A DNA stretch of 20,000 nt from Amoeboaphelidium occidentale (lineage: Eukaryota). Positions within the stretch are counted from its first letter, which is position 1, and every line of letters begins with the position of its first letter. The stretch is taken from assembly GCA_023515795.1 (NCBI GenBank), contig JALGPX010000050.1, forward strand, positions 53,508-73,507. Reading direction: 5' to 3'. The notes beneath the pieces are model-generated. The model was not told where the DNA came from and did not search any database. It saw nothing but the letters and a program-made list of their open reading frames with translations. Of the stretch, positions 1 through 20,000 are shown in pieces. The translations under genes and the position numbers were made by a program.

Positions 1-1341
1 GTCGGCCATCTTGCAGTAGTAAACTCCTTGCTGGTGGCGGATGGATCGTTGTTTTCAGCATCGGACGATAAGTCAATAATTCAATGGTCGCTGGAGAGAC
101 GCGATATTGTGAGAACATACAAAAGGTATTCGGCCGCTGCACTGGGTCATACTGGCCCTGTTAATGCGATTACTTTTTGCTCTGGACTTTTACTATCTGT
201 CGGAAAAGATGACACGCTTAGAGTTTGGAACATTGACACTGGAAACCAAGTGGATCAATTTCGATACTTTAAGTCTGCTACAGCTGTTATTTGTCATAAC
301 AATATTTCATACGCAGGTAGTGAGGATTTCTCCGTATTAATGTTTGATTTGGAGAAAATCAATGTGCAAAGTGGACCAGAAACGTCCAGAATTAAAACAA
401 TAAGTACCAAAAAGAGGAAACGGTCCAAAAATGTTCGAGCAACCAGGGAAAGCGAAGACTTATCTCAACGCTGGATCGTTCTGATTATTGCTAGCTCGTC
501 AGTATTAGTAATACTCATTACTGGTTTTGTTTTCTACGTATGGAGGTCCAAAATAGCATCCAAGTCCGCCTCGCCTACTGTTAGCAGTACAGCAGATTCA
601 ACTTTTACAGAAATGGATCTTCAAACTGTCGTTAATTCTGTAATGGGTATTTCAAAACACGCGGAGTATATTATTGACAATTCAGTGGTTGCAAAAGTAA
701 AGAAGATTGCAACTGGCGGAGGCGGAGATCTTTTTCTGTGCAAAGTTATGGATCCGCGTCTTGTTAAGACAACTGGTGACTTTGTGGTTCAAAAGTTGGT
801 GTTTGTTAACAACAAGTTAAAGGAAGAGGCTTTTTATCAGGAGGTTGGAATTATGGTTATGCTTTCGTCATTCCCACACTTTTGCAAAATTCTTGGCTAC
901 ACTGAGAAACCGTTATCGATTATTATGCGCTATTACTTAGAAGGATCTCTATTCGATTGGATCAGAAACAGAAGCCTTAGCAGGTCAATCGCAATTCAAA
1001 TTCTACTGGAAGTGTCTAGAGCATTGAAAGTAATGCATTCTAATTATCTGGCTCATTGTGATTTAAAGTCCCAAAATATTCTTGTTGAGATCGTGAATGG
1101 CATTCCAGCTTTCCGTTTGACGGATTTCGGCATCACAGAAATCCTTTCGGATAGAATAATCGCATCGAAGGCTTTTCGTGTTGTCAATTTGCGTGGTCTA
1201 TCAATTCTATATTCTTCACCAGAAGCCTTCGTTTGTTACAAAACGAAACATTACGTAGGTGTTGATTTTAAGAAGTTTGATGTCTACTCTCTTGCATGCC
1301 TGTCGTATGAGGTTCTGACACAAAAATCGCCATGGAACTGA
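1..1341 (+). CDS. WD40-ectodomain receptor-like kinase A (5'-partial): last WD40 repeats, basic linker, TM helix, C-terminally truncated non-RD kinase
   Basis: Frame is open from base 1 (VGHLAVVNSL...), so the TTG at 28 is not the start. WD40 motifs (GHTGPVNAI...DDTLRVWN). Hydrophobic helix WIVLIIASSSVLVILITGFVFYVW at about 472-543. Kinase motifs GGGGDLF, VVQK, FYQEVGIM, HCDLKSQN (1054-1077), TDFG, YSSPE, DVYS. Ends SPWN-TGA. Colinear with the last exons of genes B and C. Confidence 0.92.
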   Translation, partial: VGHLAVVNSLLVADGSLFSASDDKSIIQWSLERRDIVRTYKRYSAAALGHTGPVNAITFCSGLLLSVGKDDTLRVWNIDTGNQVDQFRYFKSATAVICHNNISYAGSEDFSVLMFDLEKINVQSGPETSRIKTISTKKRKRSKNVRATRESEDLSQRWIVLIIASSSVLVILITGFVFYVWRSKIASKSASPTVSSTADSTFTEMDLQTVVNSVMGISKHAEYIIDNSVVAKVKKIATGGGGDLFLCKVMDPRLVKTTGDFVVQKLVFVNNKLKEEAFYQEVGIMVMLSSFPHFCKILGYTEKPLSIIMRYYLEGSLFDWIRNRSLSRSIAIQILLEVSRALKVMHSNYLAHCDLKSQNILVEIVNGIPAFRLTDFGITEILSDRIIASKAFRVVNLRGLSILYSSPEAFVCYKTKHYVGVDFKKFDVYSLACLSYEVLTQKSPWN

Positions 1342-1387
1342 ATTAATAAAACACTACTAAAACGCATTGTCAATGCCTTCAATTAAT
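1342..1387. terminator. 46-bp shared 3' region between convergent kinase genes, with candidate poly(A) signal
   Basis: AATAAA at 1345-1350 just after the gene A stop. Palindrome GCATTG-T-CAATGC at 1364-1376. ATTAAT follows the stop codon on both strands. Confidence 0.35.
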
Positions 1388-4132
1388 CTATTTGAATTTT
1401 GACCACGGTGTTCGTCTGGAAATCATCTCGTAAAGTAAGGATGCCCAAGAGTAAACATCTCCCGCTTTGAAGGTATCCGCACTATCGCTAAAAACAGTTT
1501 TAGCTCTTTGTCTTTTAAATGTCTCAGGTGAAGCATAGGCAAACGATAATCCTCTAATGTTTGAAACATTGAAACCGTTAACCACCAAACTCATAGAAAG
1601 AACTTGAGTGATACCGAAATCAGTCAGAACACAAAATGCAAAACCATCCTTATCAGTATCAATTAAAACATTAGCACTCTTGATGTCTGAATGCGACAAA
1701 TCGTGCTGATGAAGAGCACTTATTCCAGAAGCAATATCGGAGATGAAATGCAGCATGATTCTTTTTGTGATTCTTTTCTCGTTCTTTATGAATTTATCCA
1801 ATGGTCCAAGGCGATAATGCTTCATAAGGATACTCAGAGGCTCTGATCTACAATAACCAATTATCTTTGCAATGTTTTTATGGTTCTTCAGCATTGCCAT
1901 AATGCTCAACTCTTGTTCAAACAGTTTAGCTTGTCTAGCGTTCAAGTTCTGGTTACTTGAATTGGAAATCAATCGCTTTACAACTATGACATTTCCAAAA
2001 ATACTGGTCTTTTCATCCAAAGCATCGGCCAGGTACACCTCACCTCCCCCTCCTTGTGAAAGTTTTGACGTTACTCGAAAGCTTGTATCTGGTACTTCCA
2101 TGTAAGCTGGGACCGAAAGCACTTCCTGGCTAAAGGAAACAAGAGTGGCTGTCTCTGTTGAATACGAATCAGGTCTAGCAGGAGTTACCTTATAGACCGG
2201 CGGAACAGATGGGAGGTAGATTGCTGACTTGAATTGAGCGTAATCACGTCTTTGCCAATATCTTTTATAAAAGAAATAGGCTGCCAATAATATTAAAAGT
2301 AGTGCGAAACCAGCGCCACCAATTATTATATAGATTAAAGTAGACAAATCTAGGAGATTTTCTAATGTCACTGAATTGTCCGGACTAACGCTAGGATTAA
2401 CCGATCGAGAAATCAATGCTCTTCTTGAGGATCTGTTGTCGTCAACATCACTAACAGAAGTTTTGTTAGAGTAAGTAGAACTCGGATGAAAAGTTGTTAA
2501 TGCTGATGCAACAGAAGAAGTTATTTGACTCTCATCCCTTATTGCTGAAGTTTGGTATTCCCCAATCCTTGTTTCCGCTGCTGTTGTTAATATTTCTGTT
2601 GATATTGCTTTCTCTGAAGCAGTTGTCGTGGAAGTTTCTTCTAATTTCGTAGTTGGTGTAGAAACAGGCGGTACCTCTGAGGCAGTTGAAGTAGAAGAAA
2701 ATTCAGACGTAATTTCGGTTGTGCTCGTAGTTTGTGATGTTGTGGTTGTGCTACTTGTAGATCCCACGACTAGTTCTGGTGCAGCAAATTGAAGTTTCCA
2801 AAGATCGCCATTATCTTGCCCGCCGAAAATGTATGACGCGTTCATGCTACTAAAAAATGCAGAACCACCTCTCCATCCTGGTCGATTTTGACTGCTTTGT
2901 ACACGATAGGTCCCGTATTTTGGTGCAATCTTGGAGCAAGTATCATTAATGACAAGGTCCCATGTAAAGGTTTGAACATCAAACAGCCACTCGTCTGAAC
3001 ATTCATAGAAATCAATATTGGCATCCGTATAATCACCTCCTTGAAGCAAAATCTGATTCCTTCCCGCATCGTACAACCAATTTGGAGATATCTTTGCTGC
3101 TGGATAAGCATAGCGAGAGTCAACCGTATAATTCCCAGGATCGTATGCATATGGTGACCCTCCAACAAATGCCCACATACCAGCTGTGATATTGTACATC
3201 CAAGTCTCTGATGTGCAAGCCCAGGTAGTATCCATAGATCCTCTAATTGGGAGAGGTCCACAACCTCCTGTAACAAAAAGGAGGTTGTCATGTGTTACAA
3301 TCATGGATGCTGTTCTTCGTAAACCTGGCTTATTTCCACTACTCAATGCACCATAAGACTCGATTATTGAGAACTCATTGGTGCTTGAGCTCCACAGGGC
3401 AGTAAATCGGTTGTTCGACACGCGATACCTCCAAAGAGTATTGGAAGTATATCCAGAGCCGTCGCCACCAAATATGTAAAGAAGTTTATCATTATGGCTG
3501 TATGCAAATGCAGCGACTTGAAGACCGCCGATATTTGTAGTGTCAGACTCTTCCATGGGAACAAATACAGGCATCTCATCAAGCTCTGTTGTTCCCCCTA
3601 TCCACGTAAACATGTTTGTATCAACATCATAAGACCAAAGGTCATTCAAATAACCAAAGTAGGGGTAAATTGTTTTTCCTATGCCTCCAATTATGAAGAA
3701 CTTTCTCAAATCAGAATCATAGAAGTATATAAACTCCCCACGAGAACCCGGATAAATACTACTGTTTGTATCTCCAATAGAAGTATAAACTCCAACTGCT
3801 TCTACCTGATTGCTTCCGTGAATCCATGTCCAAGCAGAGGAAGCATCTCTTGAGAAATCGCATTTCCACAAATCATTAGTTCTATCATACCCCAATTCAT
3901 AGTCTGAGTATGTATAACCCCCAAATACATATGCAGCGTTTTTTAGATCATCAACGAACATGCCTGAGTAATGCCGTGACCCGACTTTATTTGATGCTAG
4001 ATAGACACCTCTCGATGGCGGATACACTGCGCCTGTTCTATAAGTTTCACCTCCCCACCAGGTCCAATTGTACGGGATAGACTGTGTAAAGACTGAGGAT
4101 GCTAATAGTGGCGCCAACAGTTGAATGATCAT
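1388..4132 (-). CDS. Kelch/galactose-oxidase-type beta-propeller receptor-like kinase, 914 aa, intronless
   Basis: Signal peptide MIIQLLAPLLASSVFTQ. Kelch-like repeats (YVFGG...NDLW, FIIGG...NDLWSYD...W, LYIFGG...NTLWRY, LFVTGG, LLQGG, YIFGG). Ser/Thr-rich stalk. TM LIYIIIGGAGFALLLILLAAYFFY-KR at about 2267-2338. Kinase motifs GGGGEVY, VVKR, FEQELSIM, HSDIKSAN (1670-1693), TDFG, YASPE, DVYSW. Ends TPWSKFK-TAG. Confidence 0.93.
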   Translation of the reverse strand: MIIQLLAPLLASSVFTQSIPYNWTWWGGETYRTGAVYPPSRGVYLASNKVGSRHYSGMFVDDLKNAAYVFGGYTYSDYELGYDRTNDLWKCDFSRDASSAWTWIHGSNQVEAVGVYTSIGDTNSSIYPGSRGEFIYFYDSDLRKFFIIGGIGKTIYPYFGYLNDLWSYDVDTNMFTWIGGTTELDEMPVFVPMEESDTTNIGGLQVAAFAYSHNDKLLYIFGGDGSGYTSNTLWRYRVSNNRFTALWSSSTNEFSIIESYGALSSGNKPGLRRTASMIVTHDNLLFVTGGCGPLPIRGSMDTTWACTSETWMYNITAGMWAFVGGSPYAYDPGNYTVDSRYAYPAAKISPNWLYDAGRNQILLQGGDYTDANIDFYECSDEWLFDVQTFTWDLVINDTCSKIAPKYGTYRVQSSQNRPGWRGGSAFFSSMNASYIFGGQDNGDLWKLQFAAPELVVGSTSSTTTTSQTTSTTEITSEFSSTSTASEVPPVSTPTTKLEETSTTTASEKAISTEILTTAAETRIGEYQTSAIRDESQITSSVASALTTFHPSSTYSNKTSVSDVDDNRSSRRALISRSVNPSVSPDNSVTLENLLDLSTLIYIIIGGAGFALLLILLAAYFFYKRYWQRRDYAQFKSAIYLPSVPPVYKVTPARPDSYSTETATLVSFSQEVLSVPAYMEVPDTSFRVTSKLSQGGGGEVYLADALDEKTSIFGNVIVVKRLISNSSNQNLNARQAKLFEQELSIMAMLKNHKNIAKIIGYCRSEPLSILMKHYRLGPLDKFIKNEKRITKRIMLHFISDIASGISALHQHDLSHSDIKSANVLIDTDKDGFAFCVLTDFGITQVLSMSLVVNGFNVSNIRGLSFAYASPETFKRQRAKTVFSDSADTFKAGDVYSWASLLYEMISRRTPWSKFK

Positions 4133-4333: not shown

Positions 4334-4816
4334 TCATGATCCACGACCGCCTCCATTGCCATATCCACGACGAGGTTGCGGCGGTGGTGGAGGTGGGCGA
4401 CGTGGTGAAGGTGGACGAGGAGGTGGTGGAGGAGGCATGCGCGGTGGAGGTGGGGGTACATGTGGTGGCGAAGTTGTCATTGGTGGTGGCGGAGGCACAA
4501 CAGTAGAAGTTTCAGGCCGTGACAGGGTGCTGCTCGTTGGTTGAGGAGGTGGAGTACTGCTTGTTTGAGTTGGTGGAACTGGTGGAACCAAAGTTGTTTC
4601 TTGTGCTGGATATGATATAGATACAGTTGTTGTCGGACCTACTGGTGGAAGAGGCGTCATGTACGTGACAGCTGGTGGAGATGGAATATGTGTCGACAGA
4701 TCAGGAAGAGCAGACGTTTTTCGTGCTGAACCAGAACAAGGCGCAGCTCCATTCGCGTCGGGAGCAGCAAATGTTGTCAGTGAAAGCAAAGTTGAAACAA
4801 TCAGGATGATCTTCAT
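4334..4816 (-). CDS. Small secreted proline/threonine-rich (extensin-like) protein, 160 aa
   Basis: ATG start and clear signal peptide MKIILIVSTLLSLTTFA. Pro/Thr/Ser-rich body, poly-Pro runs with Arg, and C-terminal RRGYGNGGGRGS. No TM or GPI-like hydrophobic tail. Confidence 0.8.
   Translation of the reverse strand: MKIILIVSTLLSLTTFAAPDANGAAPCSGSARKTSALPDLSTHIPSPPAVTYMTPLPPVGPTTTVSISYPAQETTLVPPVPPTQTSSTPPPQPTSSTLSRPETSTVVPPPPPMTTSPPHVPPPPPRMPPPPPPRPPSPRRPPPPPPQPRRGYGNGGGRGS
4375..4497. repeat. Low-complexity (GGN)n tract encoding poly-proline on the minus strand
   Basis: Runs of ggt/gga/ggc triplets, GC-rich relative to the rest of the window. Confidence 0.75.
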
Positions 4817-5756
4817 AATACAATGTCGATTGCCAAAACAATAGATTTAGAAATGACATTGACAGTTACGGCCGCTTTTTATGCGATGCTTGTGTTAGTC
4901 GCACATCTTTTTATTGGCTAGGGAGTTACACAATTTAGATCTCATGTCGCACAATTACATGAATCCACGTTACACAGGTTTGACAGGTGATTTAGAAGAA
5001 AACCTGTACGATTTTCCTTAAAATAATCACCGTTTATGAAAACAAAATTAAGCTCTTCTTTTTGCTCATTATAGCGGCAAAATTCTATCACCTCTTGAAC
5101 ATAACGTTGAAACAAAGGGTTCAAAATGCAGATGATAGAGGTGTGCTCATTAATGGACCATTCAAGATACACTTCATTAAGGTGAAATTGGAACGACCAC
5201 GTTTGAAGGCACTAGAGTAATGCTAAATAAAGTGATTATCATTGTTTTCAGAGTGATTATATCTCGGTTTAAAACGTCGCAATATTCCTTATTGGCAACG
5301 GCTCGCACTTTCATGCTAAGAGATAATTGAGTTAGTCAAAGCCCTATCATTCTTTTTTTGTAGAAAATGTTTCATAGCAATGTATGCGCGTTATTATGAC
5401 AAATAGTTATTTCAAGCTTTATCCCGTTGCTGCCGACAAGACTCACGAAAAGAAATTTGATTATAACTTTTCATCACATTCCATCTGGGCTAGGGCCCCG
5501 ATGTGTAGCAGATTCTCTTGATGATGTCTTTGTATAGTGTAAGTCAATGCCTGAATGAGCGGTCTTCGCCATGAGCCCAGCAAGGAAATTTGCGTACCTA
5601 TCAACAATGATATTGCTGTATTTCAAGGTATATTGATTTTTATCAACGGAGCTATGTTTCATGAAAAGAGCTGTCAGACAAGCCGATGTTTGAAATTCTT
5701 TGAGAGTACATTCTAGTTGTTTCCCTGCGATATCCGTTTGAAAAACAGCCTTTTTT

Positions 5757-8700
5757 ATGATGATCATCCGAATGTTCATATCTTTACTGTCATTACTAAG
5801 CTTAGTCTCTTTGGTTTCAACGCTGCAGCATGAGAAGAGCTTTGTTTTTGATAGTTCTGCCTCTAATGTTGTAGACATAGCGCTGTACAATCGGTCATTG
5901 CTCATAACAGCTTCAAATGCAGTAGTCCAGAAGGATATTGAAACAGGCATTTTTCTTAGAAAATTTTCTGCGCATTCAGGCAAAATTCGTAGTTTTTTGG
6001 TTGTCAATGGCTCTATAATGATAACCTCAGCTTGGGACGATATGATCATCGTTTGGGACTTGGCTACTGGCTCAATTCTGAGGAGAATATGGCTGGAAGC
6101 CTTAAATACATATCCTTCGAGCATAAAGTTAGAGAGCAATAGTTTGTTTGTATGTGGACTTGATGGTAGGGTAAGGATTGTGAATATGATGTCTGGTAGA
6201 GTTGTTCAAACAACCTGTAATTTCTTTCTTGATTTCTTATGATTTCTTTAGCCCTGAACGAAGAAGTAAATGTAATTGCTGTTAAAGATGATAATTTTTA
6301 TGTCGGAAAACGAGGAATATCATCTCAGTTGGAAAAATATTCTACAACTTCCAGATCTTTACAACTGATGTATGTGGGCCATAAAGATTCTGTCTTCAGT
6401 TTGTCTCTGCAAGAGGGGTTGCTTTTTTCTGGCTCATATGATACCAACATTGTCTGTTGGGATGAAATGAATGGACAAATAATCCGTATATATGAAGGCC
6501 ATCCGGCACCAATTCAGGTTATTTCTATTTTTGAAAATTATTTGTATTCCAGTGGTGAACAAGGTATTATATTGAAATGGAATATTGATTCCGGAATCAT
6601 TGAAACAAGCTTTCCGGCTCTTCATGGAAGCACCATTTGGTGTTTGGCGTTTGAGAGCGGAAGTTTGTTCTCAGGGTCTATTGATACAACTGTTGTCCGG
6701 TGGGATGTAAACTCTTCATCCGCACTTTTTTCATATGAGGGTCGCATAATCAAGCTTGGCTGTCTTGTTTTGTGGAAAAATGCCGTTATAGCTGGAGGTA
6801 ATAATCCACTATTGTCGATTCAGGACAAGTCGCAAGATTCTGTTTCACCAGTCGAAATTACGTCTGGGCATTTCGGTGATGTTATCTGTATGATATTACT
6901 CGATGACACTCTTTTTTCAGGAAGTACCGATACGACCATTCGCCGCCGAAGTTTGATCGACTACGCTGATTTGAAAATTTATTACGGTAAGAATTTGCCC
7001 ATCAGGATTTAAATTTTATAGGCCATTCCAATATTGTTAGTTCGTTGGCTTTAGACGAAAATTACATGTATTCTGGTTCTTATGATTCTGTGATTAAACG
7101 TTGGAATATATCAACCGGATCTGTGGATAAAGAGTATATTGGTCATACAGATTTAGTCTGCGGTATTCAAGTGAAAAGAGAGTTTCTTTATTCTGCTTCT
7201 TTTAATAATGATTTGAGAGTTTGGGATAAAGAATTGGAGATCACGATCAATGCTTTTCAGTGTAAGTTTGTACCGCGAATTAACAGTTTAGATTTCAAAG
7301 AAGTGTTCTGCATCTTCGTTTATGATGATTTTCTTATTGTGGGAACATTTGGTATCGACATTATTTCGACCTCCACTGGTGTACTGTTGGCTGGACAAAA
7401 AGGTTTAACACGGAAGTCTTCACCACTAATTTTATAGAAAATACTATTTGCTTTACAATTATAGCTACAAAGTTGCTTGTTTATTCAGGGCACGGCGATG
7501 GTGTGATAAGAGGAAGAGATCTGATGACTTTAAATGTTTTGCAATCGTTTCAGGGCCACAAAGATAATGTGATGTCACTTTGTTTGGATGAGGCTGGTAT
7601 CTTATTTTCGACGGGGTTTGATGGCTCTATTAAGAAATGGAACATGGCTTCCAGAAGAGTTTCTTTTTCATATGAAAATCGAAATGGTTCTGTAACAGCA
7701 TTGGTTGCAACGAGTGGACTCTTGGTGGTCGGAACAAGGCAAGGATTAATCAACTCGTTTGACATACGAACTGCGTACATAATCAAGTCCACAGCTCACC
7801 ATCAAAGTTCTGTGACATCCTTGACTATATATGATGGGATGATCTACTCAACTGGGAGGGACGGGATTGTTCTTGCATTTCGTCCGGCTGATACCTCGAT
7901 CTCGGATGTTTTGTACGATACAGAGACTCTCCCTATCGCAAGCGCGACTCTCAACATGTTAAATTTGATAATAGTCAGAGGTGAGAACGAGGTTATTTTT
8001 TTACCCAGGACGAACTCAAGTAGTTCAGTGAGAAGTCTTAATTATGCTTTGCCAATTGTGAGTATCGCAGCCAATGATGATATGATATTTGCTGGCACAA
8101 AGGCTGGGTCGATTGTCGTTTGGAGCGCCACATCTTTGCAGACTTTGTTTTATATGGAAGAACACACTTCTCAAGTCAATTATCTTTTGCTGACAGATTC
8201 TTCGCTCTATTCCGCATCAAATGACAAAACCGTCATCAAATGGTCTGTAGAGCAAAGACGAAAGATGATTGTGTTTAAAAGATTTTCTTCGACGGCACTT
8301 GGACACTTGGGCCCCGTGAATTCTTTATCTTTGTCCGGCGATACTTTGTTTTCTGCTGGTTCAGATTTATCAACTCGGCGATGGAATGCACAAACAGGCC
8401 GCCATGAAGATGTGTACTTTGGAGCCACAAAGTCTGTAATGTCTGTTTTTTGCTTCAACGGATCTGTTTTTGCTGGTAGTGAAGATTTCTCGGTGCTGAT
8501 GTATTCACGTAACCTTCCGTTGAATGCCGCAACTCGAAATGCGATTAGCCTTTCAACAAAAACTAAGCGAGGGGTCAGAAGAAAGATTGTTTCGAGAACT
8601 AATTACTCTGGCTCTGAAAATTCACAAACTGTATTTTTAGTTGGTGGAATCGTTGCCTTATTGATAATTGCCGTTACCGCTATTTGGGCATTATTCTATT

Positions 8701-9500
8701 GTTCATCGAAACCAAGTATTAAGCAGATTGAGAAACATGGGTTGTTTATACAGGAATTATCAGAAATTACTACTGATTTGGAAACGGTTGTTAACACCGT
8801 TGTCGGCTTATCGAAACATGCTGCTTACATGGTGGCGAACTCAAACGTTGCAACTATTAAGAAGCTTGCATCTGGTGGTGGAGGAGAGATATTTTTGGCT
8901 CGAGTTATGAACGCCTTTTTAACAGAAAAGACCGGAAATCTGGTGATACAGAAGATAGTTTTCATCAAGAACTCCAAATCAGAGGAAGCTTTCTACCAAG
9001 AAGTCGGGATAATGATCATGTTATCTCCGTTTCCGAACTTCTGTCGTATAATCGGACTAACAGAAAAACCTGCGTCGATGATCTTGCAGTATTATCCTGA
9101 CGGTTCATTGCAAAGCTGGATTCAAGGAAACAGGTATGACCGAGGTGCTATCGCAAAAATTTCAAAAGAAATTTCTTCTGCTTTGAAAATTATGCATTCG
9201 CATTACTTGGCTCACTGTGATATTAAACCTCAGAATGTTCTGATTGAAATTGTGGAGGGAATTCCCACATGTTTTGTAACCGATTTCGGTATTACTCAAG
9301 TACTATCTGATAAGATCCTGGCATCTCGTGATTTTCAAGTGACTAATCTTAGGGGATTATCAGTACCTTATGCTGCCCCAGAAGCATTTTCCTGTTTCAT
9401 AAAAAGAGAGTTTTTTGGAGTTGACTTGAAGAAATTTGATATTTACTCGTTCGCTTGTGTAGTACTAGAACTTCTAACTAGAAAGATTCCGTGGTGCTGA
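5757..9500 (+). CDS. WD40-ectodomain receptor-like kinase B, join(5757..6216,6252..6986,7022..7261,7292..7402,7438..9500), about 1202 aa
   Basis: Four consecutive ORF-track pieces join in frame after removing GT-AG introns (exon sum 3609 nt = 1203 codons). Signal peptide (MMIIR)MFISLLSLLSLVSLVST; the start could be a slightly later Met. Long WD40 array. TM VFLVGGIVALLIIAVTAIWALFY at about 8631-8699. Kinase with HCDIKPQN (9213-9236), TDFG, YAAPE, DIYS. Ends IPWC-TGA. Confidence 0.9.
6217..6251 (+). other. Spliceosomal intron B1, 35 nt, phase 1
   Basis: GTAATT...TTTAG. Removal fuses ORF 5757 to ORF 6239 in frame (T|CC = Ser). Same position as intron C1. Confidence 0.88.
6987..7021 (+). other. 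Spliceosomal intron B2, 35 nt, phase 1
   Basis: GTAAGA...TATAG. Removal restores the WD40 GH dipeptide (KIYYG|HSNIVSSL). Confidence 0.9.
7262..7291 (+). other. Spliceosomal intron B3, 30 nt, phase 1, in-frame and stop-free
   Basis: GTAAGT...AATTAAC...TTTAG. Hidden inside ORF 7045-7437, but at the same position as the obligatory 32-nt intron of gene C. Confidence 0.75.
7403..7437 (+). other. Spliceosomal intron B4, 35 nt, phase 1
   Basis: GTTTAA...CACTAAT...TATAG. Removal joins to the frame of ORF 7473 (G|AA = Glu). Same position as intron C3. Confidence 0.85.
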
Positions 9501-9993
9501 TTAATCTTTTGGAATAGGAATGTGGTCAAAATGACAATAAAATGAAGATTTTCCGAGTGCGGGAAATGCTATTGGGTTGCATTACCCTGTCCTTGGTTAA
9601 GTTTAACCTGACCCATTCAACCCGTTTATTACAGGTTAAACTTTACATATTGTATTATCTCGATAGTCTGACCAGATCAGTACCTGAAGAAAAAGCTCTC
9701 TATGACCGAACGCTAGTTGCTTGAAATGTTAAATAGTCTTTTGCGATGGCAGATAATATTGGGAAATTGTAAACACTGCTAGCCCAATGAGCCAAAACCT
9801 CAGTTTTTCTGGAAGAGTAGGACTGTCAAAGTATCTTGTTCTTTCGACTTGAGCAGCAACAGAGGTGACATCCGTTTTGGAGCGTTTTCTCTTCATAAAG
9901 TTTTCATACGCGCTTATTGGGTTATAAGAACCTGTTAGAGTAGGGTTTTCTTCTAGCGGCTTTTATCTTCCTTCGTTAAATTGTCGCTAACTA

Positions 9994-11265
9994 TTAATCC
10001 TTTGACAATTTTGGCCACTTTAACCGTGCCGTTGGAGTCTTGGCTGCTGCATCAGAATCACTTGCATATTCCCTTAAAGTTAAAAACTTTTTGCAAGCTC
10101 TGCGGAATTTAGTCGAACACTGTGGTTTGAGCAGCTTCTCAATATCTTTTCGAAGGGCATCATTCCGAACAAGCCCTTTGGGAAATAAAATATCACGAAG
10201 TGTTTCATCAATGATACCAAGAATTAGATAGTCATTTTCGTCACATCGGTATCGCCAGTCCCTAGAAGGAACATAGAACCTCCATTCTAAACAATTCTTC
10301 AGAATATCTACTTGTCCCTGAAAGAATTCATCATATTGCACGAAACAACTGAACGAACTGATCAAATCGCTCACAAAGTCGTTAAAGAATAAGTCGTAGT
10401 TAAACCTTCTTTTACCAATAATCTCTTTAAACAGGAACTTGTAAAGTTTGGCTAGTCTCGGAAGATTCTTTGGGCAACAGTATTGATTGATGAAACTGTG
10501 ACATTCGATAATGTTGGGTGTCCTGAGTTGCGGAATTAGACACGAGAGATTTTTGATTCCAATATCGTAATCAAGGCAACCATCAACAACCATGTCCATA
10601 GTCCTAGAAACAACTTGTATAATCACCTTTTGTTGAAAACAAGCATAATTATTCTTGCGAGCAAAATCCAAGTATGAGAGCCACCGCTCAATATCTTCCA
10701 GATTTTCAATACAGCGCCGCCCGAACGTAAGATACCGATTTATATCTCTGTAGAAAAGGTCTTCAAAGACATGCCAATACACTGTTTTTGTTAACTCTGG
10801 GTTTTCCTCTCTTAGCTTATGTACACGGTCTTGCAAATCTTGAATCGTAATGAAATCTGAAACTTTGATTTGTTTGAGGTGAAGGGTAGAAAATACGCGT
10901 CCCAGTTCATTTCCAAGGCATTCATGTTCGCAATTAGTTAAATCACTTGTAAATGATTCAGGTTTTTGACTTACATGCTTGTTCTGTTTATAGAAGAATC
11001 TAGCGTTATGCAACGGATCTTTATACAACCTCTTCACGACGTTTCCCCAGTTTGGAATATTTTCCCAATTATCGTGGACATTTTGGATAGCGTAATTTGG
11101 AGAATGTCTGGTAAAGTACGCTTAGTAGAATGAAACGTCAGAGGTAAGCACCAACACTGTTGCGCTCGACTTTTGAAATGATACCAAATCATAGAAGCCG
11201 AGGAACAACGCGATTAGTCGTAGTATCTCTGGTGGCAGGCTTAATAGCGACAAGTTTCTGAACAT
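9994..11265 (-). pseudogene. F-box protein gene with one in-frame TAA at 11122-11124 (nonsense allele, sequence error or unrecognised intron)
   Basis: ATG at 11265 is in frame with ORF 9994-11037 and reads MFRNLSLLSLPPEILRLIALFLGFYDLVSFQKSSATVLVLTSDVSFY*AYFTRHSPNY...WGNVVKRLY. LLSLPPEILRLIALFL..DL matches the F-box consensus. The C-terminal 347 aa are not recognised. Ends TAA TAG. Confidence 0.65.
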
Positions 11266-11494: not shown

Positions 11495-14400
11495 ATGAGA
11501 CTTCAGGTTTTGTATGGATGTATGATCATGCTATGCTCTTTCATAGTAGGAAGTTTAGAACATGAAAAGAGCTTCTTTCTTCAAGATGGAGCTTCTAATG
11601 TGCTTGCCATTGGTATTTACAGAGACTCACTGCTGGTGACTGCATCAAACGATGTTGTTCAGAAGGACATTGAAACTGGAATCCTCCAAAGAACCTTTAG
11701 AGCTCATGATAAAACTGTGTATTCCTTCGTTGTTACAAATGATTCCAGGATGATATCATCTGGTTATGATGACATGATGGTCGTTTGGGATCTTGTTACA
11801 GGATCGATTCTCAAAAGGATTTGGTTAAGAGTACCAGATACAAGGATAGAGAGCTTAGCTGTAAAGAATAATATTGTCAATGCTGGTGGCCTTGATAACA
11901 AAGTAAGACAAGTTGATTTGGTCAGTGGAAGGATCATCAGAACAATAGGTACTTCCATAACTTTGCGATAGCTTAATAGTTTTGTAGAGCTCGATGGTTA
12001 CGTATACAGCATTGCCGTTGGTAATGAGCACTTCTTTGTTGGAAAGCAAACCTCTCCGAATGTTTTAAGATACTTGATTCAAGGAGGAACTGCAAGAATG
12101 AGCTTGGATGGTCATACCAACACTGTCTTCACACTCTTCTGGTCTAACGATATCCTTCTATCGGGATCTGCTGACAAGAATGTTATTTGCTGGAATGCAA
12201 GGAGCGGAAATATCATAAGAATCTTAACAGGCCACTCTGACGGTATTTACGCAGTTGGTCTGTTTGAAGGATTTGTTTATTCAGCAGGATTCAATCGAAT
12301 TGTATTCAAGTGGAATATCGATAATGGAGAGATTGTAAAGAAGTTTGATGATCTCCATGCTATTGTGATCAAGTGTTTCGCGTACAGACCATCAGAACTT
12401 TTTACAGGCTCTATTGATACTACAGTGATAAGATGGAATGCAATATCTGGTGAATCAATATTCCGTTATATAATGAGAATTAAGAAATTAAGGGCCGTTG
12501 CTGCATGGAAGAACTACGTCATGAGTGCAGGTGAAGATATTGAAATCAATATTTGGGATGTAGCAATCGATAGCATTGAGCCTATTGCGGTGATAGTCGA
12601 TCATATTCTTGCTATTAACTGCCTCTCAGTTTATGACGATTTTCTCTATTCGGGAAGCTCTGACACAACGGTGAAGCAATGGAACCTCACTCAATTTGCT
12701 CTGAATAAGATTTATGAGGGATATCCTCTAACAATCATTTCTCTAACAGCAGACCAATCTTATGTTTATGCATCAGGATTTGCGAGACTTATCTATCAAT
12801 GGAATTCTTCATCGAGTGTACTAGCCGGCCGTTTTGAGGGCCACAGTGGTGATGTGAGTACCTTGAAACTTAGCAGCAGTTTGCTTTTCTCTGGATCGAA
12901 TGATCAAACTGTCAGAGTTTGGAATGTACACTCGAAACAAACTGAGAAAGTTTTTAATTGTAAGCCTTTACCAGATACTAACCTTCGGTAGCGGTTGATC
13001 CTATTAATGATATTATAATTGACGGAGACTTACTTGTTTCAGCCACGGTTGATGGCATAGAATCATTTTCACTTGCTTCCGGCGAATCTTTGGTTTATCT
13101 AGAAGGTTTTGATAATTTAAAATTTGAAGCTCATTTTTAGAGTTCATTGTCTGCGGCTGCGTTGTATCTCTGCGAAATCGCTTGTTCACCGGTCATCCAG
13201 ACGGTATCATCAGAGTTAGAGATTTGAGCACTCTAACAGTCCTTGAATTATATCAAGGTCATTCGGATTTCGTGTTTGCACTTTGCTTTGATTCCTCATT
13301 TAACCTTTACTCAACAGGGTTCGATGGGAGCATCAAAAAGTGGAACATGGCAACAAGAAGGGTTGCGTATTCTTTTGAGAGTCGCTTCTCTTCGGTAACC
13401 ACTCTGGCCGCTGATGGGCCGATCCTGCTGGTAGGTTTAAGAGGCGGTAGTATTAACGCCTACAACATCAATGATGCCTCAGCTTTATATACCATTTCGA
13501 TTAATAAGCAGGCTGTTTCATCATTATTGGCTTTAAATGGATCAGTTTACGGAACAGGCCTGGACGGGCTTTTGGTGAAATTCCCGGCGTTCCTTCTGAG
13601 AAATATCTTTACAGTTTACAGCTCTAAAGATGAACAATTACGAAGTGTCTTATTTAATAGCCTTTATTTGGTTGTGTTATTAGGCGAAAGCAAAGCTTTA
13701 TTTTTCTCAAATGACCAAGTTGTGAAGACTGTTGATTTGCAAATAGCTTTGATTTGTATGACTTCAACCGAAAGTTTCCTTTTGGGAGGTTCGAGATCTG
13801 GAGCAATTTACTCTTGGAACATGGATACTTTTAAATTGGAATTTGAGTTGAAAGGTCATTTAGCTCAGGTTAATGATATTCTTGTTGTTGGACAACGGCT
13901 TTTCTCGGGTTCAGATGATAAAACTATCATTCAATGGTCTTTAGATGACAGAATCGTTGGAAATGTCTATCAAAGACTTTCCGCAAATGCTCTAGGGCAT
14001 CTTGGCCCTGTGAATGCATTATCATACTGTTACGGAACGCTGTTCACTGCGGGCGCAGATTTGTCTGCTCGTCGATGGAACACTCAAACAGGAAGGCATG
14101 AAGATGTTTATTTTGGGTTCTCAAAAGCTGTAACCACGGTATTATGTCATAACAGTTCGATTTTCGCCGGGAGCGAGGATTTCGCAGTGCTAATGTTTCA
14201 GCCCTCTTTCAATGATTTATCACAAGATTCAACCATTTCACGGACCCTTATTTCTACTAGAAAAAACAGAGTAACAAGACTCGTTCAAAGATCTCAGTCT
14301 ATTGGGTCCAGCGATTCCCCTATTTTGTCGATTATTATTGGGGCAATTGTTTTAATTATTTCATTACTTTCTTTGACTTTCTTTTTATTTTATTGGAACT

Positions 14401-15194
14401 CAACTAACAGAAAACAGGCCCCTGATATTAATTCTAGCTCTGCGTTCGACTCAAGCATAACAACAACCGATTTACGTACGATCGTTAATTCCGTCATGGG
14501 AATTTCAAAGCATGCATCTTATTTAATTCCTTCTTCGATGATTGCCGGAATCCGGAAACTAACAAGCGGTGGTGGTGGTGAGCTTTTAATCGCTAAAATT
14601 ATGGATCCAACCTTGCAAAAGAAATTCGGAGACACAGTAATTCAGAAAATTGTATTTATTAGGAACAAAGCGAATGAACAGGCATTCTTTCAAGAAGTCG
14701 GAATTATGATCATGCTGTCTTCTTTTCCTCATTTTTGTCGAATCATTGGATATACTGAGAATCCATTATCCTTAATTTTGAAGCTTTACCCTCAAGGTTC
14801 TCTTTCAGAATGGTTACACAAACTCCAAGGTGCATCAAAATTTGATGTGAAGCTCTTAAGAGAACTTGCTGAAGCTATACGTATAATGCACTCGCATTAT
14901 TTGGCACATTGCGATATTAAGCCTCAAAATGTCTTGATGCAAGTTGATAACAGCGTACCGTCGTGCTACTTGACAGATTTCGGTATTACACAAATATTGT
15001 CAGACGAGATTCTCGCATCCAAAACTTTCAACATAATCAACTTGAGAGGCCTTTCTGTATTCTATGCGTCGCCCGAGGCTTTTACCAATTTTAAATCAAA
15101 GATGTATTTGCAGACCGATTTCAAGATGTATGACATTTACTCTTTTGCTTGCGTCATATTCGAAGTTATAACACGCAAGGTTCCATGGAGTTAA
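11495..15194 (+). CDS. WD40-ectodomain receptor-like kinase C, join(11495..11948,11988..12959,12992..13105,13141..15194), about 1197 aa
   Basis: ATG 11495 gives signal peptide MRLQVLYGCMIMLCSFIVGS followed by LEHEKSF (gene B has LQHEKSF). Exon sum 3594 nt = 1198 codons. WD40 array. TM ILSIIIGAIVLIISLLSLTFFLFYW at about 14322-14396. Kinase with HCDIKPQN (14907-14930), TDFG, YASPE, DIYS. Ends VPWS-TAA. Confidence 0.9.
11949..11987 (+). other. Spliceosomal intron C1, 39 nt, phase 1
   Basis: GTACTT...GCTTAAT...TGTAG. Contains the in-frame TAG at 11969-11971. Removal gives RTIE|LDGYVYSIAV, aligning to QTTS|LNEEVNVIAV of gene B. Confidence 0.85.
12960..12991 (+). other. Spliceosomal intron C2, 32 nt, phase 1
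   Basis: GTAAGC, a perfect TACTAAC branch site (12976-12982), then GGTAG. Opens a 114-nt exon (VDPINDIIIDGDLLVSATVDGIESFSLASGESLVYLE) absent from the ORF track. Confidence 0.9.
13106..13140 (+). other. Spliceosomal intron C3, 35 nt, phase 1
   Basis: GTTTTG...AGCTCAT-TTTTAG. Removal joins to the frame of ORF 13182. Confidence 0.85.
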
Positions 15195-15362
15195 ACTATC
15201 TGGTTGTTCTAATCGTTTCCTCGTTGAAATAAAAGAAATTTCTGACCATAGGTTATAATCAAACAGATTCTCTTCTAACTTGTAAGATCGCGAATGGAGC
15301 TTCATTTCCCAACAATAGACCAGAGTTCTGATATAAACTCGGCACAGAAAGCGCAACTGTAA

Positions 15363-16043
15363 ATCGGCTTTCTTATTGAGAGTTCTTCCATCGCAAAAGT
15401 CAAGAAGATTGCTTCTGGTGGTGGCGGAGAGTTGTTCTTATCGAAAATCATGAATCTTTCTTTAGCCGGAAAGGTTGGCGATGCAGTAATCCAGAAGATT
15501 GTCTATACCAAAAACACAGCCGCGGAAGACGCGTTCTATCAAGAAGTTGGTATTATGATCACTCTGTCAAAATTTCCACATTTCTGTCAAGTTATCGGAT
15601 ACACAGAGAAGCCTCTTTCCATGATTTTGAAGTATTACTCCGAAGGCTCCTTTTTTGACAGGTTGCATAAGAATACAAGTGGCAAAACGATTAGGATTAA
15701 GATCTTGAAAGAAATTGCGCAGGCTCTGAATACCATGCATTCCCACTATTTAGCACATTTTTGTCTAAAGTCCCAGAATGTACTTATTGAAGTTTTTCAG
15801 GGTATCCCTTGTTGTTATTTAACAGATTTCGGAATTACACAGATTCTTTCAATGAACATTGTGGCTTCCAAAATGTTCAATGTGACTAATTTACGCGGGT
15901 TGTCTGTCCATTATGCTTCTCCAGAGGCGTTCACTAATTTCAGGGCAAAGTTTTATGAAAGAGTTGATTTCAAGAAGTATGACATGTACTCTTTTGGTTG
16001 TGTCTTGTATGAAGTACTGATTAGACGATCCTCATGGTCCTAA
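15363..16043 (+). pseudogene. Orphan kinase-domain paralog without ectodomain or TM and lacking the catalytic Asp (pseudogene fragment or pseudokinase)
   Basis: Homology begins just after an in-frame TAA (15360): IGFLIESSSIAKVKKIASGGGGELF. No ATG between that stop and the G-loop. Catalytic loop reads HFCLKSQN (15756-15779) instead of HCDLKSQN. Ends SSWS-TAA at the same truncation point as the other kinases. Confidence 0.75.
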
Positions 16044-17519
16044 AGCAGGTTGCTGCAAGATAAGATAAGGCAAGCTTTTCTCAACAATTAATGTTGCATA
16101 TTGATATTACTAAATGATCGTTCATTTCCGTAATATATCCCTCTGCTGAGATGTTCTGCAAATCGACATTATTTTTTAGGGCTGCAGCTCTTTCTCCTTA
16201 AAACGTCTGCCATGCTAGCATGTTTTTCTGCAATGACTGTCTTTAGAACTGTTACTGTTACACTCTCACACTCTTATGCTTTCATGCTCTGGACAGTTTT
16301 ACTATGCGTACACTTCTTTTCTTTTGTCACGTAATCATTTGCTCGTCTTATTCGAGCGCGTCAAGCGGGGTGATCGTGTATTTGCGCATTTGGAGGATGT
16401 TGACTTGTTTGATCGTTATCACTGGTTGCAAAGGCAATCTCGCCGCATTTATTGAAAATATAGAGTCAGATAATGTTACCGTATGAGTGTACTAAGGATA
16501 GTCCCTTGATCAAGGTTGACAAAGGCTATTCACTGAAATCCATCACCAACGCCTGCTCGTTAGCACGCTGAATATCGAATATCTCTTTATGATAAATGCT
16601 ATGAGATTTAAGAATACACCGATAAATCGTTAAGTTCTTGTCTCTAAACTGGAGAGTACCCACAGCGTCATTTTTTCTAAATGACGTGAAACGCTGATTC
16701 CCGACATGCTGGGGATCTTTATCTCTCACAGGAAGTTCTATCATGCTAGGCTTGTCAACTGGCTCCTTTAGACGATATTTTACCACCTAATTATGATTCT
16801 TATCACTCTAGTTTCACCAAAGGTCTGGTTTGGATCACTGCAAGCTTCTAAACGCCGTAACCGCTCAATAGAGCCTCCTATCCCGTACCATAGTCGATTC
16901 TGTACTCACTGTTCATTTTTGTATAGTCTTATAGCGTGAAACTTAAACTAGCTTGCAGCATCTGAACCTCGCACTTCTCAAAATTTGCAGAGGCAGCACG
17001 AGAACAATGTATCATACCAAAAAGAACATAAACGAAAAGCATCATCACTCTGAAATTATCGAACCTAAATGTTCCCATGGGATGTTGTATTAATTTGGCG
17101 AATCATGTTAGTTCAGGGGCAGAATTGCCTGATTTAAAGAGATTGTTGAAAAACGATATATACTTCTCACCAAGGATGTCACACTCCATAAATATCTAGC
17201 CGGTGCAATGTGCTCAACAAGAAAGAATCAAAAATTGATTGTCGATAAGTGCTAAGGGCCTTCTGTATTGCACTCGCCAACAAGCTAGCGTGCGATTGTC
17301 TGGCTTGGTCAACCATTAAATAACCGCTGCGGGAAACTTCATCAAAGTGAATTTTTTAAGCAATCATTTCACGCCGCCTGTAAAAATCGAACGAAGTCTT
17401 CTGCTAGTCCAAACAACTCATTCAGCGCCGCTGATCGGTTTCAAACAGAAAGGCTATAGTTTCGAGACTTAAGTTCCTTTTCTTCTTGAACTTGAACAAG
17501 TCAACAACTCATTTCTTCA

Positions 17520-20000
17520 ATGATCATACTTGTCTGGATTACTTTAGCCATTCTGGTTGCTGGCAACAGTGATAATTCTCTTGCAAAGTATCTCACAGCT
17601 AAGAAGCCTTCTTTCCAAATCAATGAGTTGTATAAACATGGAATGTACGAAAACTTGTTGATCGGCTCCATCGCTGGTAACATCTACATGGTTGATATTG
17701 ATACTGGTATTCTGGTCAAAACTATCACAGGTATATTTTGAAGTTCCTACTGACACCATAGCCTCTTTCACATCCACTGGCGGGACCGGCATAATGTCAT
17801 CTGTTCAAGTTATTGGAAAACACTTGATCATCTTCTATTCAGACAGTGCTATTCAGCAATGGAATCTTGATACTGGAGAGATCGTAAGAGAAATCAAGCC
17901 TTCAAGGAGTAGCATTCTCAGCGGGGAATGCGTTTGGCATTTTGATTTAGACCTTGTCTTCTGTAGCTTGGCAAACGGCTTTGTAAGAAAAATCAACATG
18001 GCCACCAAAAGAATTGAGACTGAGTTCGATGCCCATGATAACTATTGTAATGTTCTTGTCAATGGATCTCTTCTGTACACAGCAAGTTTTGATGGTCTGG
18101 TCAAGAAGTTTGACTTGTTTGGAAATTTGTTGAGAACGTATGAAGTGGCACTTGGATATGCTAATCTTGCAGCGTTTGAAGGTGATTACTTGTTCGTTTA
18201 TTACTACAATATTGAATTCGACCGAAAGGTTCGCATAGTCAGATGGAACCATATAACAGGAATCCCTGAAGAATTTCCAGTACCCGTATCGTACATTCTA
18301 GATCCAGTGAGGGCCTCTAAAGACTCTTATATTTGTTTTGGCTTAGGATCCTTAGGTTTGAATTTTATTCAGTTGTCCAAATCGGATTTGTCAATTATAA
18401 GATCAGATCTCCGCGACCAGCTCCATTCATTTGCAGCGCCCTACTTCAGCAATGGTGAACGATTTTTCTTTTTACCAAACTCTACTATTTATGAAATCAA
18501 CATTTCAAGCGAAGGAGTCAATTTGAGAAACACACTGGATGTGGAAGTATTCAGTTTCCCGTTCGCTGATCTTGTTGTCATCAACGACACAACAGTTCTT
18601 GTGGTTTTTTCTCAGTCCAGTTCAGTTAACTTTCAGGCAAAGTTTCTTGATACCCGCTCAGGGATTTTCTCCGATGGTATTGAAATTTTCAATGATCATC
18701 ATCAATTCCAGAAATCAGGAGACGTTCTTATAGCTGCCGTTGGACAAAAAGTTGCAGCGTACAACATTGCTGATTTGACATTGCTTTGGAAATCTCCAAC
18801 AATCGCTCCGCAAACGATTACTACATTGCGCTATCAAGAAGGCTTAATTTACTTTACCACCCTAAACTACGCTGGTTGCTATAATGCTTCGACATTTGAA
18901 AAGATTGGCTTACTTTACTTTGATGATGGCCTCTACGGAACACCAGCATTTCTTGATCAGGTATTCTACAGATTATATACAGAGTTTTCGATGTTTGCAT
19001 ACGATTTCACTGATGGGCGTATGTTGATTAAATATGATCGAATGCCGAACTTCTTTATTCATGCTTTAATTTACGAAGGGTATCTTTACGTCGCAAATAC
19101 AGACAGTTTTATCTATAAGTACGATATTTCTAGTCCGGATATTGTTCTTGTTTTTTCCGGCCACACATTTGAGGTCTCAGTCATACTAATTGATGGCTTG
19201 TTTATGTACTCTGGATCTGCAGATCAAAAAATCCGTAAGTGGAACATCGAAAATGGTGAATCCCTCTTCATCTATCATGGACACAGTGAAAGGATTGATA
19301 AGTTATATCTTCATGACAGAAAACTCTTTTCGCTGACAAGAACAGAAATCAAGATTTGGGATCTGACTAGAGATCGTTTGTTGGCGACACAATTTGAAAA
19401 ATCATCTGTTCTGATTTCACTGTCCGTTTTTCAGAACGGGCTATTTTCTTGTTCTGTAGATGGAACTATTACGTCCTGGAATATTGATCAAGGTCGCAAA
19501 TATTCTGAACTCAAGAAGAAGACACCAGGGAAGTTTTTTGTTACAGTACAAAGTTTGAATAACTCTTTGGCCGTAAGTTATAACGATGGTTCTATCGTGC
19601 AATACTTCCTTGAAGAGAACGCAACCTCTAAGATAATTTCAAACCCCGCGGTGGTCGAATTATCGAACTTTGTTTTATTTAAAGATTTACTTTTCCTATT
19701 TGGAGCTGCAGAGGGTCTTGCTATTAAGAATTTAACGAGCGACATTGTACGTAGAATCGAGATTAAGAATTACGTCTCAAATTCTCTCCTAGTTACCGAT
19801 CAGTTCATTTTCAGCGGGAACAATGATACTTCAATCACTAAGTATGATGCTAGCTCTCTCGGTTTGCTCAGAACTATTAAAGCCCATACCGGATCTGTCA
19901 CAGTTCTAGGACAGTTTGAAAATGAGCTCATATCAGGTAGCGAAGATAATTCCTTAAGAACATGGAACCTCGACAATTTGAATCTGATTTCGGATCTAAA
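17520..20000 (+). CDS. Divergent secreted/ectodomain WD40-repeat protein D, join(17520..17730,17762..>20000), 3'-partial; probably another receptor-like kinase
   Basis: Signal peptide MIILVWITLAILVAG. After a 31-nt intron the frame is open without a stop from 17762 to the window end (read by hand). WD40 repeats GHTFEVSVILIDGLFMYSGSADQKIRKWN, GHSERIDKL...IKIWD, AHTGSVTVL...SGSEDNSLRTWN. TM and kinase are not within the window. Confidence 0.85.
17731..17761 (+). other. Spliceosomal intron D1, 31 nt, phase 1
   Basis: CAG|GTATAT, branch-like TACTGAC (17748-17754), then CATAG. Removal joins the signal-peptide exon to the long open frame (G|CC = Ala). Confidence 0.88.

What the first reader, a model, noticed from the sequence alone, without database searches (positions are those of the whole stretch)
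1..20000. Tandem cluster of receptor-like kinases with extracellular WD40 and Kelch beta-propellers: a candidate variable sensing/recognition system
Seen: four genes with propeller-TM-kinase architecture (three WD40, one Kelch; signal peptides visible in the three complete ones), a kinase-only fragment and a fifth signal-peptide WD40 gene in 20 kb. Established: WD40 domains are overwhelmingly intracellular, well-known receptor kinases use LRR, lectin, LysM, Ig or Cys-rich ectodomains, and Dikarya fungi lack such single-pass receptor kinase families. Inference: a birth-and-death receptor family with divergent ectodomains and a shared kinase module, perhaps for host, prey or non-self recognition. 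I recall receptor-like kinase expansions being reported in aphelid genomes, so the family may be partly catalogued; this needs checking.
Basis: partly seen in the sequence, partly recalled or inferred. Interest (0 to 1): 0.88.

Follow-up and report, generated by a model that had tools for sequence, protein, structure and literature searches.

The report
Aphelid receptor kinases missing three helices
This is a cluster of predicted cell-surface receptor genes from an alga-parasitising relative of fungi; their kinase stops three helices short of the standard fold yet keeps the catalytic residues, so it likely signals in a way ordinary receptor kinases do not.

Summary
The cluster is real. It holds three WD40-TM-kinase genes, one Kelch-TM-kinase gene, a kinase-only relic, and a WD40 gene whose closest relatives are TM-kinases. 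Spliced contigs of a related strain confirm all 7 introns of genes B and C, and one contig joins WD40 exons, TM and kinase. Every named relative is an aphelid, where a receptor-like kinase expansion is already reported.

All five kinases stop just after helix alphaF and lack the alphaG-alphaH-alphaI (GHI) subdomain, whose Arg pairs with the APE Glu and defines eukaryotic protein kinases. This holds for 193 of 198 complete family kinases across three aphelid species, yet 188 of those 193 keep all six catalytic residues and 185 keep the APE Glu. A missed exon is very unlikely: two genes end tail to tail 46 nt apart, and a contig from a spliced run crosses one stop unspliced.

Best reading: type I receptors with swappable propeller ectodomains and an active, non-RD, GHI-less kinase. 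Activity, ligand and localisation are untested. The aphelid genome paper could not be read and may already note the truncation.

The parts
1..1341 (+). Gene A, 3' part: last WD40 blades, stalk, TM (about 460-543), Ser/Thr-rich juxtamembrane segment, kinase ending after alphaF (stop 1339-1341)
   Evidence: whole product P0051; AF2 model of P0051 with 79 ectodomain strands, TM helix 879-906 and last helix alphaF
1388..4132 (-). Gene K: leader, Kelch propeller, Ser/Thr-rich stalk, TM (about 2267-2356), GHI-less kinase; no intron; its stop lies 46 nt from gene A's stop, tail to tail
   Evidence: Kelch clade of the family in the tree (P0093)
5760..9500 (+). Gene B: exons 5760-6216, 6252-6986, 7022-7261, 7292-7402, 7438-9500; leader, WD40 array, TM, GHI-less kinase; 1201 aa
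   Evidence: model; all 4 introns skipped in contigs and one contig spanning 6273-9483; kinase model m5e75c8d4970a
11495..15194 (+). Gene C: exons 11495-11948, 11988-12959, 12992-13105, 13141-15194; same architecture as B; 1197 aa
   Evidence: all 3 introns skipped in contigs; X5 record 16 crosses the stop unspliced, 14913-15400
15363..16043 (+). Relic D: kinase-only open frame, no ATG before the Gly loop, decayed juxtamembrane remnant with a stop upstream, HCD read as HFC in the window; also ends after alphaF
   Evidence: other contigs laid at 15760-15763 read HCD, so the lost Asp may be copy- or assembly-specific
17520..20000 (+). Gene E: leader plus WD40/propeller array (predicted intron 17731-17761), runs off the window; probably a further TM-kinase of a second WD40 subfamily
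   Evidence: 42-46% identical to P0098, P0072, P0101 and P0099; P0098 carries a kinase ending at Pkinase position 198; intron not tested with reads

Best explanation
These genes encode predicted single-pass receptors of an aphelid family whose kinase domain ends just after helix alphaF, without the alphaG-alphaH-alphaI subdomain, and which likely remains an active Ser/Thr kinase that would signal when its outer propeller binds a ligand. Shown: gene structures, one transcript from WD40 to kinase, the truncation and its family-wide spread, retention of the catalytic residues, ectodomain swapping. Inferred: (1) the leader is cleaved, so the propellers face the outside or a lumen and the kinase the cytosol; (2) different WD40, Kelch and NHL ectodomains bind different cues, most plausibly algal or other surfaces met by zoospore or cyst; (3) ligand binding clusters receptors; (4) the non-RD kinase is switched by proximity or a bound partner rather than by classic activation-loop phosphorylation, and phosphorylates nearby Ser/Thr sites; (5) the lost alphaG docking site and Glu-Arg pair are offset by a longer alphaEF helix with an Arg six residues after the APE Glu, and/or by a partner protein.
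For: Truncation: all 5 window kinases end at Pkinase 197-198/263. The profile ends at residue 222 of a 288-residue B-Raf chain. The AF2 model (pLDDT 87.5) ends with alphaF at 225-241 and aligns to BRAF 449-657 and Csk 188-388 at Z 21, rmsd 1.8. 193 of 198 complete family kinases lack GHI; 141 of 198 stop within 3 residues of the PW motif, against 24% expected for read-through into non-coding DNA. Not a missed exon: A and K stops are 46 nt apart, a GHI profile finds nothing in six frames of the window, X5 record 16 crosses C's stop unspliced, and all 5 Paraphelidium proteins that reach alphaF lack GHI. Activity: beta3 Lys, alphaC Glu, catalytic Asp, Lys, Asn and DFG Asp are all intact in 188 of 193, and in 117 of 121 among the 50%-cluster representatives; kinase pN 0.26-0.28 against pS 0.79-0.89 between paralogues; only 3 of 193 are RD. 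Topology: TM in 64 of 64 WD40-core members and 84 of 88 others with room before the kinase; kinase side more positive in 63 of 64 and 77 of 80. Ectodomains of 46 long members: 9 WD40, 6 Kelch, 7 NHL, 24 without a Pfam match. Arg at APE-Glu+6 in 142 of 193 truncated and 0 of 5 GHI-bearing members. OspG autophosphorylates without subdomains VIII-XI (passage).
Against: No activity, ligand or localisation data exist. In PKA, mutating Glu208 or Arg280 strongly lowers catalysis (section 4), and a stop removing subdomains X-XI of the Raf-like kinase HT1 is a recessive allele (passage). Family members were selected by a kinase profile, which favours intact motifs. N-glycosylation sequons are not enriched in the ectodomains (69 seen, 100 expected by shuffling). 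The WD40-core stalk is strongly basic 13-40 residues before the TM (419 K/R against 95 D/E), unusual for an outer face. Signal peptides were judged by hydropathy only. The spliced contigs come from one study and from runs whose kind is not on record. Two Paraphelidium proteins (P0112, P0114) end earlier still, so such ORFs can be 3'-partial. The Arg+6 contact was not measured on the model, and the 5 GHI-bearing members are probably close kin, so 0 of 5 is weak.
Confidence: 0.6

Rival explanations
1. The receptors are real, but the truncated domain is an ATP-binding pseudokinase or scaffold that signals by conformation and by recruiting a full-length kinase.
For: Loss of GHI removes a substrate-docking surface and the Glu-Arg pair; a similar truncation is a recessive HT1 allele; 5 GHI-bearing relatives exist in the same clade and could be active partners.
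Against: The catalytic Asp and catalytic-loop Lys are kept in 193 of 193 and Asn in 192 of 193; pseudokinase families usually let these drift (established knowledge, recalled).
Confidence: 0.2
2. The kinase is split or completed in trans: a separate protein (a free GHI-like module, or a common adaptor) docks on alphaF and supplies the Arg, acting as an obligatory activating subunit shared by all the receptors.
For: The APE Glu is kept in 185 of 193 without its usual partner; the terminal Trp is kept in 167 of 193; OspG needs bound E2 and ubiquitin for activation (passage).
Against: No GHI-like frame in the window; the Arg at Glu+6 offers an internal alternative. No genome was held and no search for a stand-alone GHI protein was run.
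Confidence: 0.14
3. The propellers are cytosolic or are cut off, so these are membrane-anchored WD40/Kelch scaffold kinases rather than surface receptors.
For: Basic stalk with [KR]R in 46 of 64 WD40-core members; no sequon enrichment; the nearest solved folds are intracellular multi-propeller proteins at 12-16% identity.
Against: Variable hydrophobic leaders precede a conserved mature start; positive-inside bias points to the kinase side in 140 of 144; the same kinase carries NHL and Cys-rich ephrin-receptor-like modules typical of ectodomains.
Confidence: 0.04
4. The truncation is an annotation artefact (a missed 3' exon) or these are decaying pseudogenes.
For: Many family sequences are ORF calls on unannotated contigs; relic D is decayed; P0002 is a fused model.
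Against: Tail-to-tail stops 46 nt apart; contig unspliced across C's stop; stops pile up at one position; strong purifying selection; shared by three named species.
Confidence: 0.02

Closest known systems
Aphelid receptor-like protein kinase expansion (Mikhailov et al. 2022, Curr Biol 32:4607; seen only through a citing passage in PMC10608142; abstract wording recalled)
   Same: Same lineage and very probably the same genes: 30 distinct A. occidentale loci, 1 A. protococcarum and 7 Paraphelidium proteins among the hits.
   Different: The paper was not held, so I cannot tell whether it lists WD40/Kelch/NHL ectodomains or the loss of GHI.
Plant CRINKLY4/ACR4 receptor kinases (bioRxiv 10.1101/2020.08.10.245050, abstract)
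   Same: Extracellular WD40 propeller, TM and cytoplasmic kinase; P0153 and P0161 even add a Cys-rich TNFR/ephrin-like module.
   Different: CR4 has one disulfide-stabilised seven-bladed propeller; here about 20 blades. CR4 is IRAK/Pelle-type with a complete kinase (recalled); the aphelid family is a separate clade from the one plant receptor kinase included, P0090.
TKL/TK kinases (B-Raf, RIPK2, JAK2, Csk)
   Same: Best sequence and fold matches; long activation segment with DFG and APE, alphaF Asp, HxDxKxxN loop.
   Different: Only about 20-26% identical; no alphaG, alphaH, alphaI or subdomain-XI Arg; HCD instead of HRD; longer alphaEF helix.
Minimal bacterial kinases OspG and NleH (review PMC12756638, passages)
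   Same: Lack the C-terminal subdomains; OspG is still active and is switched on by a bound partner.
   Different: They lack subdomains VIII-XI, activation segment included, and are soluble effectors. The aphelid kinase keeps VIII-IX, lacks only X-XI, and sits in a receptor. No sequences were compared.

Membership tests
Typical eukaryotic protein kinase (EPK) | Two-lobed fold with Gly loop, beta3 Lys-alphaC Glu, catalytic Asp/Asn, DFG | tested here: met
   188 of 193 intact; model Z 21 to BRAF and Csk
Typical eukaryotic protein kinase (EPK) | Extended activation segment ending in APE | tested here: met
   Pro 191 of 193, Glu 185 of 193
Typical eukaryotic protein kinase (EPK) | GHI helical subdomain with the Arg that pairs with the APE Glu | tested here: not met
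   Absent in 5 of 5 window kinases and 193 of 198 family members; definition from PMC3415842 section 4
Typical eukaryotic protein kinase (EPK) | Protein phosphotransfer activity | not testable with these tools
   needs an assay
Type I single-pass receptor kinase | Ectodomain, one TM and kinase on one transcript | tested here: met
   X4 record 7 joins 6273-9483 of gene B; in A and K the propeller, TM and kinase lie in one open frame
Type I single-pass receptor kinase | Cleaved signal peptide, N-out/C-in topology | tested here: inconclusive
   hydrophobic leaders and positive-inside bias in 140 of 144 agree; sequons not enriched; no SignalP or DeepTMHMM
Type I single-pass receptor kinase | Ligand-controlled signalling at the cell surface | not testable with these tools
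   no ligand or localisation data
TKL group | Kinase domain branches within TKL | tested here: inconclusive
   B-Raf and RIPK2 are among the best PDB hits together with EGFR, TYK2 and JAK2; the trees had only 6-10 incidental outgroups and no curated TKL set
IRAK/Pelle RLKs including CRINKLY4 | Kinase in the IRAK/Pelle clade | tested here: inconclusive
   family is one clade (100/99) apart from plant P0090, but long branches meet there and only one named plant receptor kinase was included
Receptor tyrosine kinases | HRDLAARN-type catalytic loop (motif as in the EGFR alignment) | tested here: not met
   HxDxKxxN with Lys in 193 of 193, the Ser/Thr-type loop
OspG/NleH minimal kinases | Loss of subdomains VIII-XI, including the activation segment | tested here: not met
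   VIII and IX are present
Aphelid receptor-like kinases of Mikhailov 2022 | Listed among that paper's receptor-like kinases | not testable with these tools
   paper not held

The most novel reading that the evidence does not exclude
Aphelids run their main receptor repertoire, hundreds of sequence clusters with interchangeable propeller ectodomains, on an active eukaryotic kinase that kept the activation segment but discarded the GHI subdomain in one early loss. This uncouples the two elements held to define eukaryotic protein kinases, and the gap is filled by an internal Arg or by a shared subunit acting in trans.
Probability: 0.45. Interest if true: 0.88.

Novelty: new variant of a known kind. 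Interest (0 to 1): 0.77.

Why it matters
The activation segment and the GHI subdomain, joined by the Glu-Arg pair, are described as co-evolved and defining for eukaryotic protein kinases. A large natural family that keeps one and drops the other, with catalytic residues nearly invariant, is a ready-made test of what GHI is for, and a small (about 230 aa) domain that can be expressed and assayed. The family also gives candidate host-recognition receptors for parasites that infect cultured algae, and shows what surface signalling looked like in the sister group of fungi.

Tried and rejected
No whole genome was held, so there is no genome-wide count and no proteome search for a free GHI module. 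The run search listed no holder on record as RNA; I rely only on what laid contigs bridge. The homodimer prediction for the kinase gave no answer (score 0.01) and is used neither way. The metagenome locus scan gave 2 distant loci (27% identity) with a GHI-like stretch, not family members. The search with GHI-bearing P0176 gave only 3 hits and no named relative. ESM Atlas gave generic kinase clusters only. The fold search of the full-length model gave only generic multi-propeller proteins. OspG, NleH, RIO and Bud32 are not among the 50 listed rows of the wide fold search, which excludes nothing. Sequon enrichment was tested and not found. dN/dS could not be computed for most pairs because synonymous sites are saturated, so positive selection is untested. 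GHI-bearing members looked nested among truncated ones, but a single loss is not rejected (AU p 0.438, 42-row subset); the test of GHI members as one clade did not finish. Pfam found no F-box in the 11125-11235 exon. Earlier scan findings: none in 3 look-ups. Nine paper searches listed no paper on this family's truncation, judged from listings except for the papers opened; the key paper is outside the library, and no supplements were read.
Full report
1. Observation. The window is about 39% GC eukaryotic DNA read with the standard code. No whole genome was held. I built six models (C start set): A (1-1341 +, 3' part), K (1388-4132 -, 914 aa), B (5760-9500 +, 1201 aa, four introns), C (11495-15194 +, 1197 aa, three introns), D (15363-16043 +, kinase only) and E (17520 to the window end, +). 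Pfam gives WD40 plus kinase for A, B and C, Kelch plus kinase for K, kinase only for D and WD40 only for E. A, B, C and K each have one strong hydrophobic segment between propeller and kinase.

Contigs from runs X3, X4, X5 and X8 (one study, kind not on record, about 92-97% alike) skip all seven predicted introns of B and C at GT..AG, so I infer that they are RNA. X4 record 7 (3111 nt) joins 6273-9483, from WD40 exon 2 through the TM to 17 nt before the stop. An AF2 model of A's whole product (P0051) shows an N-terminal helix, 79 ectodomain strands (about 20 blades, probably three propellers; my count and inference), a TM helix at 879-906 and the kinase. E is 42-46% identical to four family TM-kinases, so it is probably a sixth member whose kinase lies beyond the window.

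2. Origin and family. All named family hits are aphelid: 30 distinct A. occidentale loci, some partial, one A. protococcarum protein and seven Paraphelidium proteins. Of 20 representatives looked up, 7 clusters carried an organism name and all 7 were aphelids; 13 had none, so a wider range is not excluded. The profile search found 458 clusters at 50% identity with E up to 1e-30 and listed 150; a few of those listed are unrelated multi-kinase proteins. In a tree of 153 rows the family is one clade against 10 incidental outgroups (SH-aLRT 100). Among 46 long members chosen for a Pfam scan, 9 carry WD40, 6 Kelch, 7 NHL and 24 no recognised ectodomain; 8 add Cys-rich ephrin-receptor-like repeats. 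Among 12 full-length paralogues the ectodomain thirds average 35-44% identity and the kinase 59%.

3. Topology. A TM precedes the kinase in 64 of 64 WD40-core members and 84 of 88 others that have at least 90 residues before it. The kinase side is the more positive in 63 of 64 and 77 of 80 (4 left out for lack of upstream sequence). Leaders are hydrophobic and variable and, in the WD40-core genes, precede a conserved mature start. Against this, sequons are not enriched (69 seen, 100 by shuffling) and the WD40-core stalk is strongly basic (419 K/R against 95 D/E), which is unexplained and could be a processing site. Type I topology is likely, not shown.

4. The unexpected feature. All five window kinases end at Pkinase position 197-198 of 263, one to four residues after the PW motif (SW in D) that follows alphaF. 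The profile ends at residue 222 of a 288-residue B-Raf chain. The AF2 kinase model (pLDDT 87.5) has alphaF at 225-241 as its last element and aligns to BRAF 449-657 and Csk 188-388 with Z 21 and rmsd 1.8.

Of 247 proteins fetched by then, 198 passed the filter for a complete family kinase (score at least 150, profile covered from position 40 or before to 236 or after). 193 lack GHI and 5 keep it; 141 of 198 stop within 3 residues of the Trp and 174 within 10. Read-through into non-coding DNA would give 24% and 53%. The three long tails without GHI are a fused gene model (P0002) and two low-complexity tails; a GHI profile scores none of the 193.

A missed exon is very unlikely. A and K end tail to tail with 46 nt between their stops. 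The GHI profile finds nothing in six frames of the window. X5 record 16 runs unspliced over 14913-15400, across C's stop. All five Paraphelidium proteins that reach alphaF lack GHI, although two others end earlier and look 3'-partial.

5. Is it alive? Among the 193, beta3 Lys is kept in 190, alphaC Glu 193, catalytic Asp 193, loop Lys 193, Asn 192, DFG Asp 192, APE Glu 185 and alphaF Asp 193; all six catalytic positions are intact in 188. Among the less redundant representatives the figure is 117 of 121. Selection by a kinase profile inflates this somewhat. Between window paralogues the kinase has pN 0.26-0.28 and pS 0.79-0.89: old duplicates under purifying selection. Only 3 of 193 are RD kinases. 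An Arg six residues after the APE Glu, on a longer alphaEF helix (208-216 in the model), occurs in 142 of 193 truncated and 0 of 5 GHI-bearing members; it is a candidate substitute for the lost Arg, but the contact was not measured. A single loss of GHI is not rejected (AU p 0.438 on 42 rows), and not shown either.

6. Mechanism. I commit (0.6) to active, GHI-less, non-RD Ser/Thr receptor kinases: the ectodomain binds a surface cue, receptors cluster, and the kinase acts on nearby sites, with proximity, a partner or the alphaEF Arg making up for GHI. Gene structure, truncation and conservation are shown; topology, ligand, clustering and catalysis are inferred. Rivals: ATP-binding pseudokinase (0.2), completion in trans (0.14), non-receptor topology (0.04), artefact (0.02).

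7. Comparison with what is known. PMC3415842 (passages and section 4) names the activation segment and GHI, linked by Glu208-Arg280, as the co-evolved features that define eukaryotic protein kinases, and says mutating either residue strongly lowers activity. PMC4892718 (passage) lists a stop removing subdomains X-XI of Raf-like HT1 as a recessive allele. PMC12756638 (passages) says OspG and NleH lack VIII-XI and that OspG is active, switched on by bound partners; they have lost the activation segment too, unlike this family. The CRINKLY4 preprint (abstract) shows that WD40 ectodomains on receptor kinases are known. PMC10608142 (passages) cites Mikhailov 2022 for differences in receptor-like kinase sets between aphelids and fungi. 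That paper was not held; its report of an expansion is recalled, and it or its supplements may mention the truncation. PMC8657485 and PMC5217372 (passages) had nothing on this family. Nine searches listed no paper on the truncation.

8. Verdict. The surprising part is the family-wide loss of the GHI subdomain with the catalytic machinery intact. New variant of a known kind; interest 0.77.

Noticed in passing
window 4334-4819 (-): Small ORF (161 aa from ATG) with a hydrophobic leader and a Pro/Thr-rich body ending in Pro-Arg repeats; looks like a secreted extensin- or mucin-like protein; no Pfam match.
   Followed up: partly
window 9994-11235 (-): 375-aa frame with no Pfam match, preceded by a short frame resembling an F-box start (resemblance recalled; no Pfam hit) with possible introns near 11108-11157. 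Runs X2, X3 and X9 give no cover over 9901-11000.
   Followed up: partly
window 16100-16350: Summed contig depth is far above the flanks in run X1 (one contig at about 1000 against 104), suggesting a multi-copy repeat just after relic D.
   Followed up: no
window 15760-15763: The window reads HFC at relic D's catalytic loop, while contigs laid there in four runs read HCD; these may be paralogue contigs, or the window copy may be specifically mutated or mis-assembled.
   Followed up: partly
stalk of genes A, B, C (13-40 residues before the TM): Basic stretch shared by the WD40-core clade ([KR]R in 46 of 64, RxxR in 29 of 64); a possible convertase site for ectodomain shedding; no chance control run.
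   Followed up: partly
P0115, P0176, P0193, P0197, P0206: The five GHI-bearing family members are unnamed; four read HND rather than HCD. They are the natural controls for the truncated kinases.
   Followed up: partly
P0202 (A. protococcarum): Has a 50-residue Gln-rich tail after PW without GHI, which could reflect former stops read as Gln in that species (code reassignment recalled, not tested).
   Followed up: no
P0002, P0074: Public gene models that fuse a kinase to the next gene's ectodomain or to unrelated sequence, a sign of tandem arrays and of unreliable annotation in this family.
   Followed up: no
window 14913-15400: An X5 contig runs from gene C's kinase into relic D, so D may lie in C's 3' UTR; a contig does not prove one transcript.
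   Followed up: no
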